Below, piece by piece: positions 13,014 to 16,927 of a stretch of 64,000 bases of DNA. Where the stretch lies: assembly GCA_963842525.1 (NCBI GenBank), contig CAWJGT010000008.1:46520-110519 (forward strand). Direction: 5' to 3'. Numbering within the stretch: position 1 is the stretch's first letter; each line of letters opens with the position of its first letter. Below the pieces are notes generated by a model. It searched no databases. It had not been told where the DNA came from and saw nothing but the letters and a program-made list of their open reading frames with translations. Made by a program: the position numbers and the translations under genes. The stretch is from an uncultured Holophagales bacterium. GTDB taxonomy: Bacteria > Acidobacteriota > Thermoanaerobaculia > Multivoradales > UBA5704.

Positions 13014-14807
13014 ATGGAACGAGACGATACAGGCGCTCACCGCTCCCCTCTCGTCTTTATCAGCTATTTCCAGAAACCGCCGCAGCACAAGAAGAGAGTT
13101 CAGGCCTTCGCAGTGCGCCTTGCGAAGGAAGGGCTCGAGGTCGTCATCGACAGTGATCAGGAACCCGAGGAGGGTTGGGCTGCCTGGTCCGGGCGACAGA
13201 TCGAGACGGCTGATTATGTTCTGATCATCTTCAGCCCTGGATATGCGAGCGAGGGCAGCGGCGCGTCGAGCCCTGAAGGACGCGGCAGCGCATGGGAGCT
13301 CCATCTGGTTCAGCAAGACCTCTTTGAATCGAGAGCCAAGAATCACCGCTTCATTCCCGTCCTGTTCTCTGCTGAGCACACCGGGCTCATTCCTCGATTC
13401 CTCAGGGGCGCCTCCTACTACGATGTCAGTACCGAAGACGCCTATCAAGGCCTTCTGAAGAGGTTGCGCCGGCCCCGCGCGAAGAGTGCAACTCCGCCCG
13501 CGCCACTGGTATCTGCCATGCAGGCGGTCCGCGCCGCCACCTGGACACGCATTGGGCCGATTCCCGAGCCCGCCGATGTGTACAAGTACGACCCGTCGGA
13601 TCGACATTCAATCTTCCTGCGCAACCTTCTACGGAATCCACCTCTAGAAGAGGTGTTGACTCATCACCGCGAGGACCCGCTGAGGATTCTCAGCATATGG
13701 GGTGCCAAGCACGACAAGGACCGGATCGACTACCACCTTGGTCACCTCTACGTCCTCCAGAAGTTGCGAGATTTTGTTGGCGAACCTTCGGTCCGGACCG
13801 AGCTCTTCCTCGGCATTAATCCGATGGCGAGCTTTACCAACCCTGAACGGGCTCGCCGTCAGGCAGAATATCTTGAATGCACCGAAAAGCTGGTACGTTC
13901 CGTCCTTGGAGATCAAATCCGGATCGACAACTGCCTGAAGAGTGCCGATCTCCCCGAGGTCCGCGACATTTGTGAGCAGGCTAAGCGGACGTATTCCGAG
14001 GTCATCGAAAAGCTGGTCTCCATCTTCGACGTTGACCGGGTGAGCCAGATCCGCACGAGCCTGCCGGCAGCAGATCAGGAAGCCATTCTCAGCGAATTGG
14101 AAGCCGCCTTCGAGCTTCCCCGGGAGCAGGCCGAACAACTGTTTGAAGATTTGAAGGCATTCTTTGGCACGAAGAAGCCCTGGCTCCATGCCGAATTCGA
14201 AAGAGAGCACCGCCGCCAGCTCTTTGTCTACACCCATGCAATCGCGAAGCCGCACTGTATCCTGGTGAGCACGCGTCACCTTGCCCAATGGCGATGGTAC
14301 CAGGCCGTCCTCTGGCTGGGCAAGATGAACCCAGTCCCCGAGTTGATCCTCCTCGACGCGTTCCGAGACCCGAACGATGACGAGCCCATGAGATCGGGCG
14401 CCGGCCTGCCGATCTTCCTTATGGATCTCCCGAGCGAGACTCGTGCGAAGCTCGAGTACGCCAGCACGAGTTTCGAGTATTTCCTGCCGCAGTGCTTCGA
14501 CTATCTCATCTTTCCCCAGCAGGAGGAGGTCGAGGTCGTTGCTTCCGGGACGGACCGGCGGACGGTTTTTCTCAAGGCACCGTGGAACTTGTCCCGCTAC
14601 CGCGAGCAGCGCCTCGGCTCCCGCGAGATCCTAGCCGCCTGCCAGCAGCAACTCCTGCGCCTGTTCGAAAGGCATCGGCAGGTCGTCTCCAAAGCGCGGC
14701 AGTCCTTCTATGAGTCTCATACAGGTTGGATCAGCCTCACGAACGCACAGTGTCTGGCCCAGGCGGCGAGCTGGTGCGGTGTCACATTGGAGGAGCAGAG
14801 CTTCTGA
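13014..14807 (+). CDS. SEFIR/TIR-domain protein fused to a degenerate class Ic (Tyr/Trp) aminoacyl-tRNA-synthetase-like domain
   Basis: N-terminal 'VFISY...RVQAFAVRL..EGLEVVID...GWAAW...IETADYVLIIFSPGY...GSAWE...RFIPVLF' is a SEFIR/TIR pattern. C-terminal part has HIGH-like 'HLGH..LQKLRDF' and a KMSKS-position 'PMRSG...IFLMDLPSETRAKL'. Confidence 0.75.
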   Translation: MERDDTGAHRSPLVFISYFQKPPQHKKRVQAFAVRLAKEGLEVVIDSDQEPEEGWAAWSGRQIETADYVLIIFSPGYASEGSGASSPEGRGSAWELHLVQQDLFESRAKNHRFIPVLFSAEHTGLIPRFLRGASYYDVSTEDAYQGLLKRLRRPRAKSATPPAPLVSAMQAVRAATWTRIGPIPEPADVYKYDPSDRHSIFLRNLLRNPPLEEVLTHHREDPLRILSIWGAKHDKDRIDYHLGHLYVLQKLRDFVGEPSVRTELFLGINPMASFTNPERARRQAEYLECTEKLVRSVLGDQIRIDNCLKSADLPEVRDICEQAKRTYSEVIEKLVSIFDVDRVSQIRTSLPAADQEAILSELEAAFELPREQAEQLFEDLKAFFGTKKPWLHAEFEREHRRQLFVYTHAIAKPHCILVSTRHLAQWRWYQAVLWLGKMNPVPELILLDAFRDPNDDEPMRSGAGLPIFLMDLPSETRAKLEYASTSFEYFLPQCFDYLIFPQQEEVEVVASGTDRRTVFLKAPWNLSRYREQRLGSREILAACQQQLLRLFERHRQVVSKARQSFYESHTGWISLTNAQCLAQAASWCGVTLEEQSF

Positions 14808-14808
14808 T

Positions 14809-16050
14809 ATGGCTCAGGTCCTCGACGAGCAGCCGGAGGCATTCAGCGATCTCTATTGGCAGGTGATCGATTCTGTCTGCGCATTCCTGACCACGAAAGC
14901 TGCAGGCAACAAAGGCAGCCCGAAGATTCTTGGGCGGCTCTTGGAGCTCGTCCAGCGCATGAAGGATCTCGACGTCTACCATTGGCTGACGGAGAAAGCC
15001 TACCGGGACGAGTACAGCCACGTTATCAACGTCGGCGTCTGCGGACAGATCCTGCTCGGAAACGTACAGGCCGAGGGCCAGACTCTGGGCGCACTGATCC
15101 GCAAGCTCCTGGGCTGGAACGAGCAGACATCCGATTCGCTGATAGAGGCCACTTGGTGGCTGACGGCTTTACTCCACGATCATGCCTACCCCATCTCACA
15201 CTTCCTGCGGCACTTCGGCCCGCGTACCTATGTGGAGCGCTCGCGGTCAGGAGGGCCGCGGGAGAATCTTCCGGAATCGTGGCTCCGCTTTTCCTCGTCG
15301 CTCGCCGACCTGGTGCAACGGCTAGCTGGAGGACGCTTGCGCACACTTCTCCAAGACCTCCAAGGAGGAGAGCGCTTTCCCGATTTGGCTAGCTATAGAA
15401 GAAAGATTCAGGCCGAGTTGACGAGCATCATCCGCAGGCACAATCTGCTCGGGGATTCCGGGCCCCACACGTCGGACCTCACCTGGGAGACCACTGTCGA
15501 CCATGGCATCCTGGCAGCGCTCAATCTCTACGAATTCGCCGACGCCGAGAGTCTTTTGCATTCCAGAGACAGGAGCGCGTGGCAGCCGATTGACTACGTG
15601 GCCGACGCGATCGCTGTTCACAACCATCCCGGCCTCCGCCCCATGCTCAAGTTCGAGGAGAATCCATTCGCCTATGTACTGGCCCTCGCCGACGAGATCC
15701 AGGAATGGGGTAGGAGCGCACTCAGCGAAGACTATCTCCATCCGATCGCCAAGGTCGACATCGGACCCTTCTTCGAGGAGCAGGGCAAAATGACCTCGCT
15801 TCCGGACCGGCGCTTGAAGGTCCGCTTTTTTGTGGCCGACGCTTTTCGCCGGCAGGAGCTGCGGTGGAGCCTGGAGCGTTTCGAGAGAAGCAAAAACGAT
15901 ACCTTCAAACGGCTGGCGCTCCCGGTAATCGATCCAACAGGATCAGATCCAGAGTTGGGTGCACGAGAGTTGCTGCGAGCCATCGACTATGAGCTGCGCA
16001 TGGAAGGGATGAAGTTCCACGGAGATCCTCCAAAACGTGAACGCATCTGA
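14809..16050 (+). CDS. HD-superfamily metal-dependent phosphohydrolase
   Basis: 'YSHVINV', 'TALLHDHAYP', 'DHGILAA', 'AIAVHN', 'LALADEIQEWGR'; ATG 1 nt after the upstream stop (ORF track start 14710). Confidence 0.8.
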   Translation: MAQVLDEQPEAFSDLYWQVIDSVCAFLTTKAAGNKGSPKILGRLLELVQRMKDLDVYHWLTEKAYRDEYSHVINVGVCGQILLGNVQAEGQTLGALIRKLLGWNEQTSDSLIEATWWLTALLHDHAYPISHFLRHFGPRTYVERSRSGGPRENLPESWLRFSSSLADLVQRLAGGRLRTLLQDLQGGERFPDLASYRRKIQAELTSIIRRHNLLGDSGPHTSDLTWETTVDHGILAALNLYEFADAESLLHSRDRSAWQPIDYVADAIAVHNHPGLRPMLKFEENPFAYVLALADEIQEWGRSALSEDYLHPIAKVDIGPFFEEQGKMTSLPDRRLKVRFFVADAFRRQELRWSLERFERSKNDTFKRLALPVIDPTGSDPELGARELLRAIDYELRMEGMKFHGDPPKRERI

Positions 16051-16063
16051 CTCGGGAGGACAT

Positions 16064-16927
16064 ATGATCGAACGCATCCGCACGTATTCGGCCATTGACA
16101 CACCCCAGGACATGGCAGCGGCCGCCAAGGTCCTCGAACAGCGCTTTGACATTGAATTTACAGTTCTCTTGCACTTCAAGCAAGGCTTGCTTCATAGCCT
16201 CCAGAGTGCGAACGGCTCTCCGGAAGACCTTCCTGAGGGGGCCTTTGTAGCCTCCCGTTCGGATCCGGGTGTGCTCGAGCTGTTTGGCGAGTTGACCTGG
16301 ATCGCCAACTCGGGCACCCTGACGGTGGAGAAACGGCGGCGCTACCTCGCGGCCCTCCAAGCGATCTATCGGCGGCTTCCCGGCTCACCGCTGGACTGGA
16401 TGAGCGATCCCGGTGCCCTTTTCGTCGCTCCTGAGCGCGAGGGCCGAATCCTAGCCGAGACCCTGGGCTGGCTTCCTTCCGGCCGGTCGCTCCGGCCACA
16501 TGTCAAGAGGATCCACTATGGCGATGACCTGGTCGTAGGACTGGGCGACTTCGTGCCCAGCCGGCGAGCTTCCAGGTGCATCCTGATTGACGGGGCAATC
16601 GCCAGCGGCGCCACCCTGATCTCCCTGATCGAACGGCTTCGGGCTTTCACCGAGTATTTCTCGATCTATTCAGTGCACGCGACATGCGAGGGACTGCGTT
16701 GCATCCTGGCCTACGGCCGGGAGGCAGGCGTTAAGATCTCCATCACCGTCGGCCATGCGACGCCGGGTATCAATCGGCATTTCTACGCAGTCGGCTCCGA
16801 TGGACGTGTCATGGTGGGCGACCTGGGTGATACAATTGCACCGCTCCTAGACGCGATGTTTGAGCCAGCCCATTCGGACCGGAAGGATGACACGGGCCTT
16901 GATCTGCAAGTTCCGTTCCTGAGCTGA
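16064..16927 (+). CDS. Type I phosphoribosyltransferase, UPRTase-like
   Basis: PRPP-binding loop 'CILIDGAIASGATL', 'APEREG', C-terminal 'FYAV...VGDLGD' resembling UPRT 'YIVPGLGDAGD'; GGAGG RBS before the ATG at 16064. Confidence 0.78.
   Translation: MIERIRTYSAIDTPQDMAAAAKVLEQRFDIEFTVLLHFKQGLLHSLQSANGSPEDLPEGAFVASRSDPGVLELFGELTWIANSGTLTVEKRRRYLAALQAIYRRLPGSPLDWMSDPGALFVAPEREGRILAETLGWLPSGRSLRPHVKRIHYGDDLVVGLGDFVPSRRASRCILIDGAIASGATLISLIERLRAFTEYFSIYSVHATCEGLRCILAYGREAGVKISITVGHATPGINRHFYAVGSDGRVMVGDLGDTIAPLLDAMFEPAHSDRKDDTGLDLQVPFLS

What the first reader, a model, noticed from the sequence alone, without database searches (positions are those of the whole stretch)
13014..16927. Candidate undescribed three-gene defence/conflict system: SEFIR-aaRS-like + HD hydrolase + UPRT-like PRTase
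Seen: three tightly packed co-directional genes (1-nt and 13-nt gaps) with visibly more A/T-ending codons than the flanking operon, placed directly behind coxD. Established: SEFIR/TIR domains act in anti-phage immunity as NAD+-cleaving or signal-producing enzymes; HD domains and type I PRTases act on nucleotides. Inference: the three proteins form one nucleotide-centred system, for example an aaRS-like sensor or adenylating module activating the TIR, with HD and PRTase making, degrading or recycling a signal or depleting nucleotides/PRPP. I do not recognise this combination as a named system.
Basis: partly seen in the sequence, partly recalled or inferred. Interest (0 to 1): 0.88.

Follow-up and report, generated by a model that had tools for sequence, protein, structure and literature searches.

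The report
SEFIR–TyrRS-like, HD and PRTase operon
A foreign three-gene insert behind the cytochrome oxidase genes joins an immune-type NAD-cleaving domain to a look-alike of tyrosyl-tRNA synthetase, a metal-dependent phosphohydrolase and a look-alike of uracil phosphoribosyltransferase; it looks like a rare, undescribed nucleotide-based defence module, but no function has been tested.

Summary
Three packed + strand genes (13014-14807, 14809-16050, 16064-16927; gaps 1 and 13 nt) have GC3 0.71-0.72 against 0.90-0.97 in the cox genes. They lie between two diverged copies of the coxC-3'/coxD segment. They were not found in the relatives searched.

Gene 1 is an N-terminal SEFIR domain (PADLOC bSEFIR 4e-30, SEFIR part only) fused to a domain with the fold and HIGH motif of archaeal-type TyrRS (Foldseek 9e-8). 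Gene 2 belongs to a divergent HD family that Pfam does not cover. Gene 3 is UPRT-like.

In every relative found, the TyrRS-like domain and the HD domain form one 700-824 aa protein without SEFIR. So genes 1 and 2 are a split unit, offset by one base.

The PRTase link is seen only here. Its family normally sits in a transporter/SLOG/methyltransferase operon. In relatives, other nucleotide-remodelling enzymes hold that position: GTP cyclohydrolase II, a nucleoside deoxyribosyltransferase-like protein, a radical SAM enzyme with a partial viperin match, and a methyltransferase. Some HD relatives neighbour TIR, ThsB-like or STAND genes.

My best reading (0.35) is a signal-type defence module: the partner enzyme makes a nucleotide ligand, the TyrRS-like domain receives it, and SEFIR and HD act as effectors. 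I found no named system or paper that matches.

The parts
12193..12894 (+). Left, intact copy of the repeated segment: the 3' part of coxC plus coxD (coxD 12583-12894).
   Evidence: Direct-repeat families D6, D1, D5 and D3; pairwise alignment; ORFs.
12895..13013 (+). 119-nt spacer between coxD and gene 1. No sigma-70-like promoter was found.
   Evidence: Sequence; promoter and terminator scan: 0 promoter-like sites in 12500-17700.
13014..14807 (+). Gene 1, 597 aa: an N-terminal SEFIR domain fused to a TyrRS-like domain.
13044..13472 (+). SEFIR domain (aa 11-153). The conserved Glu95 lies in GSAWE (nt 13284-13298).
   Evidence: PADLOC bSEFIR 4.2e-30 over profile positions 38-182 of 412. Pfam SEFIR 7.9e-12 and TIR_2 7.6e-13. 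PDB 5y8f bacterial SEFIR 4e-4, with the Glu aligned. Motif position.
13581..14804 (+). TyrRS-like (class Ic aaRS fold) domain, aa ~190-597. HLGH is at aa 241-244 (nt 13734-13745). A degenerate KMSKS-position loop, PMRSG, is at aa 458-462 (nt 14385-14399).
   Evidence: AF2 model pLDDT 77.3, pTM 0.77. Foldseek: 58 PDB hits at E<=1e-3; the best is TyrRS at 9e-8, TMt 0.69. Family profile against PDB sequences: 7 of 7 hits are TyrRS, and both signature regions align. HLGH is invariant in 8 of 8 aligned sequences.
14805..14811 (+). Junction TGA-T-ATG. The stop of gene 1 and the start of gene 2 are offset by one base, exactly in the linker of the fused relatives.
   Evidence: Sequence. g1's C-terminal domain aligns to P0131 residues 1-417, and g2 residues 4-405 align to P0131 residues 422-816.
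14809..16050 (+). Gene 2, 413 aa: a divergent HD-superfamily hydrolase (aa ~40-305) with a C-terminal beta-rich subdomain (aa ~305-400).
   Evidence: Alignment of 42 family members: H123, D124 and H232 are invariant; H68, H71, H125, H271 and D295 are nearly so. Pfam HD hits 4 of 42 members, best 0.0022. AF2 pLDDT 87.4. Foldseek gives only weak hits to HD-type folds, best E 0.08.
16064..16927 (+). Gene 3, 287 aa: a UPRT-like type I phosphoribosyltransferase. The PRPP loop LIDGAIASGAT is at aa 174-184.
   Evidence: 176 homologues. Gene 3 keeps all 29 invariant residues of the 26-sequence alignment. Family profile against PDB: 6 of 6 hits are UPRTs, best 0.0017. Pfam Pribosyltran is below threshold, 11.7 against 26.3 bits.
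16993..17566 (+). Right, degenerate copy of the coxC-3'/coxD segment. It is 92-96% identical to the left copy, with a 131-nt deletion across the coxC/coxD boundary and a 1-nt insertion.

Best explanation
The cassette is a horizontally acquired, nucleotide-centred conflict module, probably anti-phage, that works by a generator plus receptor-effector logic.

Its core is a two-domain unit. In relatives this unit is one 700-824 aa protein: a TyrRS-like Rossmann domain joined to an HD phosphohydrolase. The TyrRS-like domain keeps its nucleotide-binding HIGH motif.

I read the TyrRS-like domain as the ligand-binding, regulatory part. It sits where other members of the HD family carry REC, GAF or AAA+ regulatory domains. 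I read the HD domain as the regulated output enzyme.

In this genome the unit is split into two translationally coupled genes. The receptor half has also gained an N-terminal SEFIR domain. In the known bSEFIR defence protein, that domain depletes NAD+.

The third gene, a UPRT-like PRTase, holds the position taken in relatives by other enzymes that remodel the base or ribose of nucleotides. I propose that it makes, from PRPP and a base that appears on infection, an unusual nucleotide. That nucleotide binds the TyrRS-like pocket. Binding switches on SEFIR (NAD+ cleavage) and HD (hydrolysis of a nucleotide or nucleic-acid phosphoester), which aborts the infection.

Shown here: the domain identities, the fusion in relatives, the foreign origin of the cassette, and the partner-enzyme pattern.
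Taken from papers: NAD+ depletion by SEFIR.
Inferred: the receptor role of the TyrRS-like domain, the generator role of the PRTase, the HD substrate, and the defence role itself.
For: 1. SEFIR. PADLOC bSEFIR 4.2e-30 and Pfam SEFIR/TIR_2. The Glu of GSAWE aligns with a Glu of the solved bacterial SEFIR, and the same WE motif is seen in the SEFIR hits P0006 and P0007. Passages of bioRxiv 10.1101/2024.02.11.579819 describe SEFIR as a single-protein system that depletes NAD+ through its N-terminal SEFIR domain.

2. Receptor-effector layout. Every relative of the TyrRS-like domain found is fused to the HD domain. In an exhaustive search of 1.84 billion representatives, 8 of 55 hits match the TyrRS-like region. 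The full-length ones, P0131, P0132 and P0133 (800-824 aa), are fusions, as are the partial P0139 and P0005. A local family HMM adds P0137, P0138 and L023 (E 1e-53 to 1e-67) and, tentatively, about 8 more.

3. Regulatory domains in the HD family. Elsewhere the HD module carries regulatory N-terminal domains: REC in 7 of 42 members, AAA in P0008 and GAF in P0179.

4. Nucleotide pocket. HLGH is invariant in 8 of 8 aligned sequences, and an H-x-G-H form is kept in most of the distant fusions.

5. Partner enzymes next to the fusions.
- GTP cyclohydrolase II, 0-nt gap, in L017.
- A nucleoside 2-deoxyribosyltransferase-like protein, overlapping the fusion gene by 1 nt, in L023.
- A radical SAM protein in L019 with a partial PADLOC pVip match, 8.7e-18 over profile positions 8-156 of 262.
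- A methyltransferase in L018.
- The PRTase here.

6. Immune-type neighbours of the wider HD family. Among 98 co-directional neighbours in 54 of 69 non-redundant loci: TIR_2 3, TIR 2, DUF4062 2, NACHT 2, Nuc_deoxyrib_tr 2. A ThsB-like TIR protein lies 10 nt downstream in L083 and L085 and 872 nt downstream in L038 (PADLOC ThsB 2.4e-7 on the L038 member only). A STAND NTPase lies upstream in L021.

7. Accessory and foreign origin. GC3 is 0.71-0.72 against 0.90-0.97 in the cox genes. g2 was not found in 60 relatives, including 5 of the same genus. The TyrRS-like domain was not found in 400 other genomes of the phylum. The cassette is flanked by duplicated cox sequence. An RHS toxin gene and a YhgA-like nuclease gene lie a few kb downstream.
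Against: - No known defence gene lies next to the cassette. PADLOC finds nothing for g2, g3, the fused relatives or the neighbouring ORFs.
- The closest relative, L017, is not in an evident defence island. PADLOC matched 1 of the 9 L017 proteins scanned (8 flanking ORFs and the adjacent GTP cyclohydrolase II gene): a weak PLD-type match on a flanking ORF. Maf and ECF-sigma-like genes lie beside it (Maf by Pfam; the sigma factor read by eye).
- The trio itself was seen only once. The PRTase family normally sits in a different conserved operon, with an ABC transporter, SLOG cluster 4, a methyltransferase and a nucleobase permease. 0 of 14 of its loci have a g1 or g2 relative.
- Most neighbours of the HD family are not immune-type: DeoRC 8, radical SAM 8, REC 6, PGI 5 of 98.
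- The HD assignment rests on motifs and weak hits. No Foldseek hit reaches E<=1e-3, and Pfam HD hits 4 of 42 members, not g2 itself.
- The conserved HIGH motif fits a catalytic, adenylating TyrRS-like domain as well as it fits a receptor.
- No relative was found in viral contigs, phage records or plasmid records.
- Nothing here tests expression or phenotype.
Confidence: 0.35

Rival explanations
1. Antimetabolite or small-molecule synthesis. The TyrRS-like domain is an active adenylating ligase that esterifies an amino acid onto the ribose of a nucleotide or nucleoside. The partner enzyme (PRTase here; GTP cyclohydrolase II, a deoxyribosyltransferase-like protein or a viperin-like radical SAM enzyme elsewhere) supplies that nucleotide, and HD trims its phosphates. 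The product would be a toxic or signalling aminoacyl-nucleoside, for example a chain terminator or a mimic of the aminoacyl-tRNA 3' end. It would serve in defence or as a secreted antibiotic.
For: - The whole TyrRS fold is kept (TMt 0.69 to a 309-residue TyrRS), with an invariant HLGH and an aligned KMSKS-position loop.
- All tightly linked partners are enzymes that build or alter nucleotides.
- Relatives of the PRTase are fused to YfbR-type HD domains in 6 of the 120 listed homologues. A PRTase-plus-phosphohydrolase route from base to nucleoside is therefore a recurring pairing.
- The partial pVip match in L019 recalls modified-nucleotide antivirals.
Against: - The lysines of the KMSKS loop are missing (PMRSG, with MKAA, MTSR and MNSR in relatives).
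- The HD of g2 is unrelated to the YfbR-type HD of the PRTase fusions (hhalign probability 0.2).
- An N-terminal SEFIR domain, and REC, GAF or AAA domains in the same position on the HD module, fit a regulatory domain better than a biosynthetic one.
- No transporter or resistance gene is present in the cassette.
Confidence: 0.2
2. Ordinary, non-conflict nucleotide or sugar-phosphate metabolism or regulation. The HD family is a regulated phosphohydrolase of cellular nucleotides or phosphosugars. The cassette is a salvage or regulatory module that happens to carry a SEFIR-type interaction domain.
For: - The commonest neighbours of the HD family are DeoRC (8), radical SAM (8), REC (6) and phosphoglucose isomerase (5) of 98.
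- The PRTase family sits with transporters and a nucleobase permease.
- L017 has Maf next door.
Against: - The SEFIR domain matches the defence-family profile at 4e-30.
- The cassette is strain-specific and compositionally foreign.
- TIR, ThsB-like, DUF4062-NACHT and STAND neighbours recur in the family.
Confidence: 0.15
3. Gene 1 alone is a bSEFIR-type single-protein defence. Its TyrRS-like domain merely senses a phage component. HD and PRTase are co-transferred passengers with no role in it.
For: - bSEFIR is described as a single-gene system with an N-terminal SEFIR domain (sections read).
- The PRTase linkage is unique to this locus.
Against: - The TyrRS-like domain is fused to HD in all relatives found, none of which has SEFIR. 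It therefore did not evolve as a SEFIR sensor, and HD is not a passenger.
- The genes are packed at 1-nt and 13-nt gaps and share one GC3 value.
Confidence: 0.1
4. tRNA-directed module. The TyrRS-like domain keeps tRNA binding and brings the HD domain to a tRNA, which it cleaves, or whose 3' end it trims or repairs. The effect would be to shut down or rescue translation during infection.
For: - The Foldseek alignments cover nearly the whole TyrRS chain (375-398 columns of a 428-residue model, TMt up to 0.69), so the region equivalent to the anticodon-binding part may be kept.
- From recall, not tested here: HD domains act on tRNA 3' ends in CCA-adding enzymes, and several defence systems cut tRNAs.
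Against: - No tRNA gene or RNA element was examined or found to be linked.
- The partner enzymes act on free nucleotides rather than on tRNA.
- Helical insertions of about 100 residues replace the CP1 region.
Confidence: 0.1
5. Assembly artefact. The repeated cox segments and the cassette reflect a chimeric join of strains in a metagenome-derived assembly, and the one-base split of genes 1 and 2 is a sequencing error.
For: - The genome has 34 contigs and 3.4% contamination.
- One short contig of run X1 joins normal coxC sequence to sequence like the right repeat copy, without the cassette (record 4).
- The split differs from a fused reading by a single base.
Against: - Short contigs of X1 match the cassette without a difference, and one spans the g2/g3 junction. 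X1 may be the source sample, though.
- The two cox copies differ by 4-8% and by a 131-nt deletion, as expected of an old insertion.
- The genes themselves are intact, with conserved motifs, whatever the junctions are.
Confidence: 0.04

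Closest known systems
bSEFIR single-gene anti-phage defence (Millman et al. 2022 preprint, sections read; NAD+ depletion stated in passages of 10.1101/2024.02.11.579819)
   Same: An N-terminal SEFIR domain with the conserved Glu, and a strong match to the PADLOC bSEFIR profile (4.2e-30).
   Different: Only profile positions 38-182 of 412 match. The C-terminal part is a TyrRS-like domain, not the bSEFIR C-terminus. 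The gene sits in a three-gene operon, and its C-terminal domain belongs with the next gene.
Thoeris and other generator plus receptor-effector defences (TIR/ThsB with ligand-activated effectors; 29 putative types in 10.64898/2025.12.03.692087, abstract and section 5 read)
   Same: A TIR-superfamily domain, a small operon, and enzymes that act on nucleotides. Some HD relatives sit beside ThsB-like genes.
   Different: There is no ThsA, Macro, SLOG or other known effector. PADLOC calls no Thoeris protein here. SEFIR is fused to the putative receptor rather than standing alone as the generator. That paper's main text has 0 occurrences of 'HD domain', 'synthetase', 'SEFIR' or 'PRTase'. I could not see its supplementary tables.
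Archaeal/eukaryotic-type tyrosyl-tRNA synthetase (class Ic aaRS; PDB 4hk4, 2cyb, 1j1u)
   Same: The fold over nearly the whole chain (E 9e-8, TMt 0.69), the HIGH motif as HLGH, and an aligned KMSKS-position loop followed by the same acidic helix.
   Different: 12-14% identity. It is below the Pfam threshold. The loop lysines are lost. It has large helical insertions and is fused to SEFIR or HD. The genome has two canonical PF00579 genes elsewhere.
HD-superfamily phosphohydrolases (PPX/GppA C-terminal domain 3rf0, Rel hydrolase domain, dGTPases)
   Same: The H...HD...H...D metal-ligand pattern and an all-helical core. These are the best Foldseek rows, though weak.
   Different: No significant sequence or fold match (best E 0.08). 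It has an extra C-terminal beta subdomain. It forms a family of its own, not covered by Pfam, NCBIfam or PADLOC.
Uracil phosphoribosyltransferase (Upp; PDB 2e55, 2ehj, 1o5o)
   Same: The PRPP-binding loop and overall alignment. All 6 PDB hits of the family profile are UPRTs.
   Different: About 80 extra N-terminal residues. It is below the Pfam threshold. It forms a distinct family of about 270 aa that usually lies in a transporter/SLOG/methyltransferase/permease operon, or is fused to a YfbR-type HD domain. Its substrate is unknown.
Defences that signal or act through modified nucleotides (Kongming, 10.1101/2024.12.20.629578; Clover, PMC12265719; prokaryotic viperins). I saw the two papers only as listing and abstract; viperin chemistry is recalled.
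   Same: The idea that a nucleotide-modifying enzyme produces the molecule that drives immunity. Also an HD enzyme in Clover, and a partial pVip match next to a relative.
   Different: No component is homologous by PADLOC. No aaRS-like protein appeared in the listing abstracts of those two papers; their full texts were not read.

Membership tests
bSEFIR (PADLOC PDLC03957 / DefenseFinder SEFIR) | N-terminal SEFIR domain | tested here: met
   PADLOC 4.2e-30 over aa 11-153. Pfam SEFIR 46.1 bits against a cut-off of 23. PDB bacterial SEFIR 5y8f at 4e-4.
bSEFIR (PADLOC PDLC03957 / DefenseFinder SEFIR) | Full-length match, including the family's C-terminal region; stand-alone gene | tested here: not met
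   Only profile positions 38-182 of 412 are matched. The C-terminus is TyrRS-like. The gene is the first of a packed operon.
bSEFIR (PADLOC PDLC03957 / DefenseFinder SEFIR) | Phage-triggered NAD+ depletion | not testable with these tools
   Needs infection assays and NAD+ measurement.
Class Ic aminoacyl-tRNA synthetase (TyrRS/TrpRS, Pfam PF00579) | Rossmann-fold catalytic domain with the TyrRS topology | tested here: met
   Foldseek: 58 hits at E<=1e-3. The listed rows are TyrRS except one TrpRS. Best hit 9e-8, TMt 0.69.
Class Ic aminoacyl-tRNA synthetase (TyrRS/TrpRS, Pfam PF00579) | HIGH signature | tested here: met
   HLGH is invariant in 8 of 8 sequences and aligns to the HIGH motif of TyrRS chains.
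Class Ic aminoacyl-tRNA synthetase (TyrRS/TrpRS, Pfam PF00579) | KMSKS signature | tested here: inconclusive
   The loop aligns to the KMSSS region of archaeal TyrRS, but it reads PMRSG (MKAA, MTSR and MNSR in relatives). The Met and mostly the Ser are kept; the Lys residues are lost.
Class Ic aminoacyl-tRNA synthetase (TyrRS/TrpRS, Pfam PF00579) | Reaches the family's curated sequence threshold | tested here: not met
   No PF00579 hit for g1. The best relative, P0133, scores 16.5 bits against 21.1. The genome search with PF00579 finds two other genes, not this one.
Class Ic aminoacyl-tRNA synthetase (TyrRS/TrpRS, Pfam PF00579) | Aminoacylates tRNA | not testable with these tools
   Needs biochemical assays.
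HD-superfamily metal-dependent phosphohydrolase | Conserved H...HD...D metal ligands | tested here: met
   H123, D124 and H232 are invariant; H68, H71, H125, H271 and D295 are kept in >=90% of 42 sequences.
HD-superfamily metal-dependent phosphohydrolase | Significant match to an HD family model or an HD fold | tested here: inconclusive
   Pfam HD hits 4 of 42 relatives (best 0.0022) but not g2. Foldseek best is E 0.08, probability 0.92, to the PPX C-terminal domain, then Rel and dGTPase rows. The VIA-align libraries were unavailable.
Type I phosphoribosyltransferase / UPRT | PRPP-binding loop and alignment to UPRT | tested here: met
   LIDGAIASGAT at aa 174-184. The family profile hits 6 PDB sequences, all UPRT, best 0.0017.
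Type I phosphoribosyltransferase / UPRT | Reaches the Pfam Pribosyltran threshold; uracil as substrate | tested here: not met
   11.7 bits against a cut-off of 26.3. The substrate is not testable here.
Thoeris | ThsB-type TIR generator plus a known ligand-activated effector | tested here: not met
   PADLOC gives only bSEFIR for g1 and nothing for g2 or g3.

The most novel reading that the evidence does not exclude
The TyrRS-like domain is an active ligase that no longer charges tRNA. Instead it esterifies an amino acid onto the ribose of a free nucleotide made or exposed by the partner enzyme: the PRTase product here, ADP-ribose from SEFIR, or the products of GTP cyclohydrolase II, the deoxyribosyltransferase-like protein or the viperin-like enzyme in relatives. 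HD processes the product. The resulting aminoacyl-nucleotide would be either a new class of immune second messenger or a poison that mimics the 3' end of aminoacyl-tRNA or blocks chain extension. That would make this the first aaRS-derived enzyme in prokaryotic immunity.
Probability: 0.12. Interest if true: 0.9.

Novelty: new variant of a known kind. Interest (0 to 1): 0.62.

Why it matters
If the reading holds, an aminoacyl-tRNA-synthetase fold has been recruited into a TIR/SEFIR-type immune module, as a nucleotide receptor or as a ligase. A whole small family would then form a modular toolkit for nucleotide-based immunity that no defence catalogue lists. That family consists of TyrRS-like-HD proteins paired with interchangeable nucleotide-remodelling enzymes. 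It would add a new receptor or enzyme class to the set of SAVED, SLOG, CARF, Macro and STING domains. It would also give a handle on what the uncharacterised HD family and the UPRT-like family do.

Even if the defence role fails, two results stand. The TyrRS-like-HD fusion family appears undescribed: my paper searches found nothing on it. And the cassette is a clear case of a strain-specific insertion into a respiratory operon.

Tried and rejected
- Known-system check. PADLOC found nothing for g2, g3, the fused relatives P0131 and P0137, or the ORFs downstream of the cassette. The one exception is a 0.0064 ZacB-like hit on the 227-aa ORF behind the RHS gene. NCBIfam found nothing for g1-g3.
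- Mobile-element carriage. No relative of the HD family turned up in viral contigs. g2 had no match in phage or plasmid records, and the TyrRS-like domain had none in plasmid records. g3 matched two Streptomyces plasmid records at 36-39% identity and no phage record. The one plasmid region I fetched carries no annotation.
- Genome-collection scan. A scan with g2 alone found no relative: 108 pattern matches, none confirmed.
- Physical contact of HD and PRTase. Complex prediction gave 'no answer' (score 0.00 against a mark of 0.32). This is no evidence either way.
- Relation between the two HD types. The g2 HD family showed no detectable relation to the YfbR-type HD of the PRTase fusions (hhalign probability 0.2). 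The 229-aa unknown of the PRTase operon showed none to P0106.
- Fold of g2. Foldseek against the PDB gave no hit at E<=1e-3.
- ESM Atlas. It gave only unnamed clusters for g2 (HD on 16% of one cluster, HD-CE at 0.89). For the TyrRS-like part it gave sub-0.9 leads, including CDPS at 0.85. I used these as leads only.
- Promoter and terminator scan. 0 promoter-like sites, and terminator-like sites no more frequent than in shuffles.
- Expression. No RNA holder was listed.
- Read support. Three short contigs of run X1 match the cassette exactly, but none bridges the cassette's outer junctions or the g1/g2 junction. X1 may be the source sample. X2 and X3 hold only cox-like pieces.
- Synteny beyond coxD in same-genus genomes. 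L098-L100 show no similarity to the window past coxD, so I could not show an exact empty site. One search left 40 matches unlisted.
- Paper searches that found nothing relevant.
I therefore could not see the contigs of P0132, P0133, P0138, P0139 and P0005.
- Supplementary tables of the Thoeris survey and of Millman et al. were not available. They may list HD-type effectors or SEFIR architectures that bear on novelty.

Full report
**What is there**

The window carries the operon SCO1-like/coxB/coxA/coxC/coxD, which ends at 12894. Three + strand genes follow after 119 nt: g1 13014-14807 (597 aa), g2 14809-16050 (413 aa) and g3 16064-16927 (287 aa). The gaps are 1 nt (TGA-T-ATG) and 13 nt, with GGGAGG ahead of g3.

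GC3 is 0.716, 0.720 and 0.708 for the three genes, against 0.90-0.97 for the four cox genes. GC falls from 0.63-0.69 to 0.57-0.61.

**An insertion between duplicated cox sequence**

The cassette is bracketed by direct repeats. Segment 12193-12894 (the end of coxC plus coxD) recurs at 16993-17566 at 92-96% identity. The second copy has lost 131 nt across the coxC/coxD boundary and gained one base, so it is a dead copy.

All five same-genus genomes match the cox part at 71-87% identity, and none of the listed matches falls in the cassette (40 matches were not listed). I did not find g2 in 60 relatives, including those five. I did not find the C-terminal domain of g1 in 400 other genomes of the phylum. 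In three relatives whose contigs run past coxD, nothing beyond coxD resembles the window.

The cassette is therefore a strain-specific, compositionally foreign insertion. Downstream lie a roughly 1-kb multi-copy repeat, a YhgA-like nuclease/transposase gene and an RHS toxin gene, so this is a variable region.

**Gene 1**

Residues 11-153 are a SEFIR domain:
- Pfam SEFIR 7.9e-12 and TIR_2 7.6e-13.
- PADLOC bSEFIR 4.2e-30, but only over profile positions 38-182 of 412.
- The solved bacterial SEFIR 5y8f at 4e-4, with the Glu of GSAWE (E95) aligned to a Glu.

For the rest of the protein (aa ~170-597) the word-based search found almost nothing. An AlphaFold model built on 8 sequences (pLDDT 77.3, pTM 0.77) gives 58 Foldseek hits in the PDB at E<=1e-3. 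The listed rows are tyrosyl-tRNA synthetases, plus one TrpRS; the best is 9e-8, with TM 0.69 on the target length.

A profile of the family hits seven PDB sequences, all TyrRS (E 0.027-0.45). It aligns HLGH to the HIGH motif. It also aligns the loop PMRSG, with the following helix, to the KMSSS region. HLGH is invariant in 8 of 8 sequences, but the lysines of the second motif are gone.

The genome has two canonical PF00579 genes elsewhere. So this is an extra, very divergent TyrRS-like domain. It is not a member of the family by the curated threshold.

**Genes 1 and 2 are one unit**

I searched 1.84 billion representatives exhaustively with a profile of the domain. Of 55 hits, 8 match the TyrRS-like region: the window's own protein, P0131 (820 aa), P0132 (800 aa), P0133 (824 aa), the partial P0139, and three fragments. 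P0005 was part of the query.

Every one that is long enough continues straight into a homologue of g2 and has no SEFIR. g1 ends where P0131 residue ~417 aligns, and g2 residue 4 aligns with P0131 residue 422. The split therefore lies exactly in the linker.

The two frames differ by one base. This is either a true split with translational coupling or an indel or sequencing error. I could not check it, because no read contig covers it.

A local HMM extends the fusion family:
- Tentative additions, because the database was small and iterated: P0140, P0142, P0144, P0167, P0172, P0173, P0180, L018, L019 and L022. Most of these keep an H-x-G-H motif.
- A subgroup linked to B12-radical SAM genes has H-x-G-Q instead.

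**Gene 2**

No Pfam, NCBIfam, PADLOC or PDB sequence match was found.

In an alignment of 42 relatives, H123, D124 and H232 are invariant. H68, H71, H125, H271 and D295 are nearly so, which is the HD metal-ligand pattern. Pfam HD hits 4 of 42 relatives weakly.

The model is confident (pLDDT 87.4, pTM 0.90), yet Foldseek finds nothing at E<=1e-3. The best rows are the PPX/GppA C-terminal domain (E 0.08), Rel and dGTPases, all of the HD type.

It is therefore a family of its own within, most likely, the HD superfamily. The module always sits C-terminal to something else: REC in 7 of 42, AAA in P0008, GAF in P0179, or the TyrRS-like domain.

**Gene 3**

Gene 3 has 176 homologues of about 270 aa. 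It keeps all 29 invariant residues of a 26-sequence alignment, including the PRPP loop. The family profile hits six PDB sequences, all uracil phosphoribosyltransferases, best 0.0017. Pfam Pribosyltran is sub-threshold.

In 14 genome loci from Acidobacteriota, Planctomycetota, Armatimonadota, Cyanobacteria and Proteobacteria, none has a g1 or g2 relative within 6 kb. Seven to nine of them instead share an operon of an ABC transporter, an unknown protein, SLOG cluster 4, a methyltransferase, the PRTase, a xanthine/uracil permease and further unknowns. Five of the 14 are 490-601-aa fusions, and 6 of the 120 listed homologues carry YfbR-type HD domains. That HD type is unrelated to g2.

The PRTase is thus a recruit from another context. 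Its link to g1 and g2 rests on this locus alone: the 13-nt gap and the shared GC3.

**What sits next to relatives**

80 metagenome loci encode the HD family, and 0 viral contigs do. Only L017 has a close TyrRS-like relative by tblastn. None has a SEFIR or PRTase relative.

Next to the fusion genes I found:
- L017: GTP cyclohydrolase II (1.3e-33) with no gap, followed by Maf.
- L023: a nucleoside 2-deoxyribosyltransferase-like protein abutting upstream (7.6e-10).
- L019: a 687-aa radical SAM protein that overlaps the end of the fusion gene. Its core matches the PADLOC pVip models at 8.7e-18, but only over profile positions 8-156 of 262. This is a lead, not a viperin call.
- L018: a methyltransferase.

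I ran a census of 98 co-directional neighbours in 54 of 69 non-redundant loci of the whole HD family. It gave DeoRC 8, radical SAM 8 (5 with a B12 domain), REC 6, PGI 5, TIR_2 3, methyltransferases 3, TIR 2, DUF4062 2, NACHT 2 and Nuc_deoxyrib_tr 2.

A ThsB-like TIR protein lies 10 nt downstream in L083 and L085 and 872 nt downstream in L038 (PADLOC ThsB 2.4e-7 on the L038 member only). A STAND NTPase precedes the HD gene in L021. An abstract seen in a listing reports DUF4062 as an NADase of bacterial immunity.

The family is therefore partly, not mainly, found in immune-type company. The close relative L017 is not in an obvious defence island.

**How it most likely works**

I weigh three facts:
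- The TyrRS-like domain stands where the HD family otherwise has sensory or regulatory domains.
- SEFIR has been added to the N-terminus of that domain. This gives the effector-receptor layout seen in TIR-SAVED, SIR2-SLOG or CARF-TIR proteins (recalled).
- The tightly linked third genes are interchangeable enzymes that build or remodel the base or ribose part of nucleotides.

The simplest model is a generator (here the PRTase) plus a receptor (the TyrRS-like pocket) plus effectors (the SEFIR NADase in cis and the HD hydrolase). I put this at 0.35.

The main rival, at 0.2, is that the TyrRS-like domain is still a ligase and that the operon makes an aminoacyl-nucleotide. The invariant HIGH motif does not discriminate between the two. 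Non-conflict metabolism (0.15), a stand-alone SEFIR sensor protein with passengers (0.1), a tRNA-directed module (0.1) and an assembly artefact (0.04) remain open.

**Comparison with what is known**

The SEFIR domain is a member of the bSEFIR domain family, but the protein is not a bSEFIR. The architecture and most of the profile are not met. It works like, but is not, a Thoeris- or CBASS-type signalling system.

My paper searches found no description of a TyrRS-like-HD protein, of a SEFIR-aaRS fusion, or of this trio. The main text of the 2025 survey of TIR systems has none of the relevant terms. I could not see its supplementary tables.

**Verdict**

This is a real, foreign cassette. The domain calls are right. 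Two of the three genes are one split unit that belongs to a rare, apparently undescribed fusion family. The third gene's membership and the defence role are plausible but unproven.

Novelty: a new variant of a known kind (nucleotide-centred immune modules), with a small chance of something categorically new. Interest: 0.62.

Noticed in passing
window 17549-18661 (tandem units at 18276-18500): A roughly 1-kb element directly behind the right cox copy recurs at more than ten places on at least eight other contigs of the same genome, at 69-84% identity. It also occurs in same-genus genomes. It contains the 196-aa ORF 17614-18204 (no Pfam or PADLOC match) and a run of about 19-nt tandem units of the form TATCC-N6-GATAA, which look like iterons or binding sites.
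   Followed up: partly
window 19680-20693 (-): A YhgA-like (Transposase_31, 4.7e-25, plus DUF4351) recombination-promoting nuclease gene.
   Followed up: partly
window 22875-28634 (+) and 28644-29327 (+): A 1919-aa RHS-repeat protein (RHS_repeat 7.5e-153), followed directly by a 227-aa ORF with no family. This is the layout of a polymorphic toxin with its immunity gene. Large beta-helix and Laminin_G_3 surface proteins follow at 29443-37747.
   Followed up: partly
L003 3294-14768; also L004, L005, L007, L009, L010, L015: The UPRT-like family of gene 3 sits in a conserved operon across several phyla: an ABC transporter (SBP_bac_3, permease, ATPase), an unknown protein, SLOG cluster 4, a SAM methyltransferase, the PRTase, a xanthine/uracil permease, and three or four unknown proteins of about 620, 495, 265 and 175 aa. 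It appears to be an uncharacterised nucleobase-processing pathway.
   Followed up: partly
L083 1683-3345 and L085 2010-3672: A 408-aa member of the HD family is followed after 10 nt by a 141-aa protein. That protein clusters with a ThsB-like TIR protein of L038 (Pfam ThsB_TIR 6.7e-9, PADLOC ThsB 2.4e-7 on the L038 member). This is a possible Thoeris-like pair with an HD effector.
   Followed up: partly
L027, L036/L037, L038, L041/L042, L045: A subgroup of 670-795-aa HD proteins, whose N-terminal domain is a degenerate TyrRS-like form (H-x-G-Q), always follows a 453-480-aa B12-binding radical SAM gene.
   Followed up: partly
window 16993-17138, run X1 record 4: One 230-nt metagenome contig joins ordinary coxC sequence to sequence nearly identical to the right repeat copy, with a 67-nt stretch replaced by 14 other letters. 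It comes from a related strain or allele without the cassette at that point, or it hints at strain mixing in the assembly.
   Followed up: no
L017 9198-9854: The GTP cyclohydrolase II-like gene fused end-to-start with the TyrRS-like-HD gene is only 218 aa and stands apart from riboflavin genes. It may be a recruited, repurposed paralogue.
   Followed up: no
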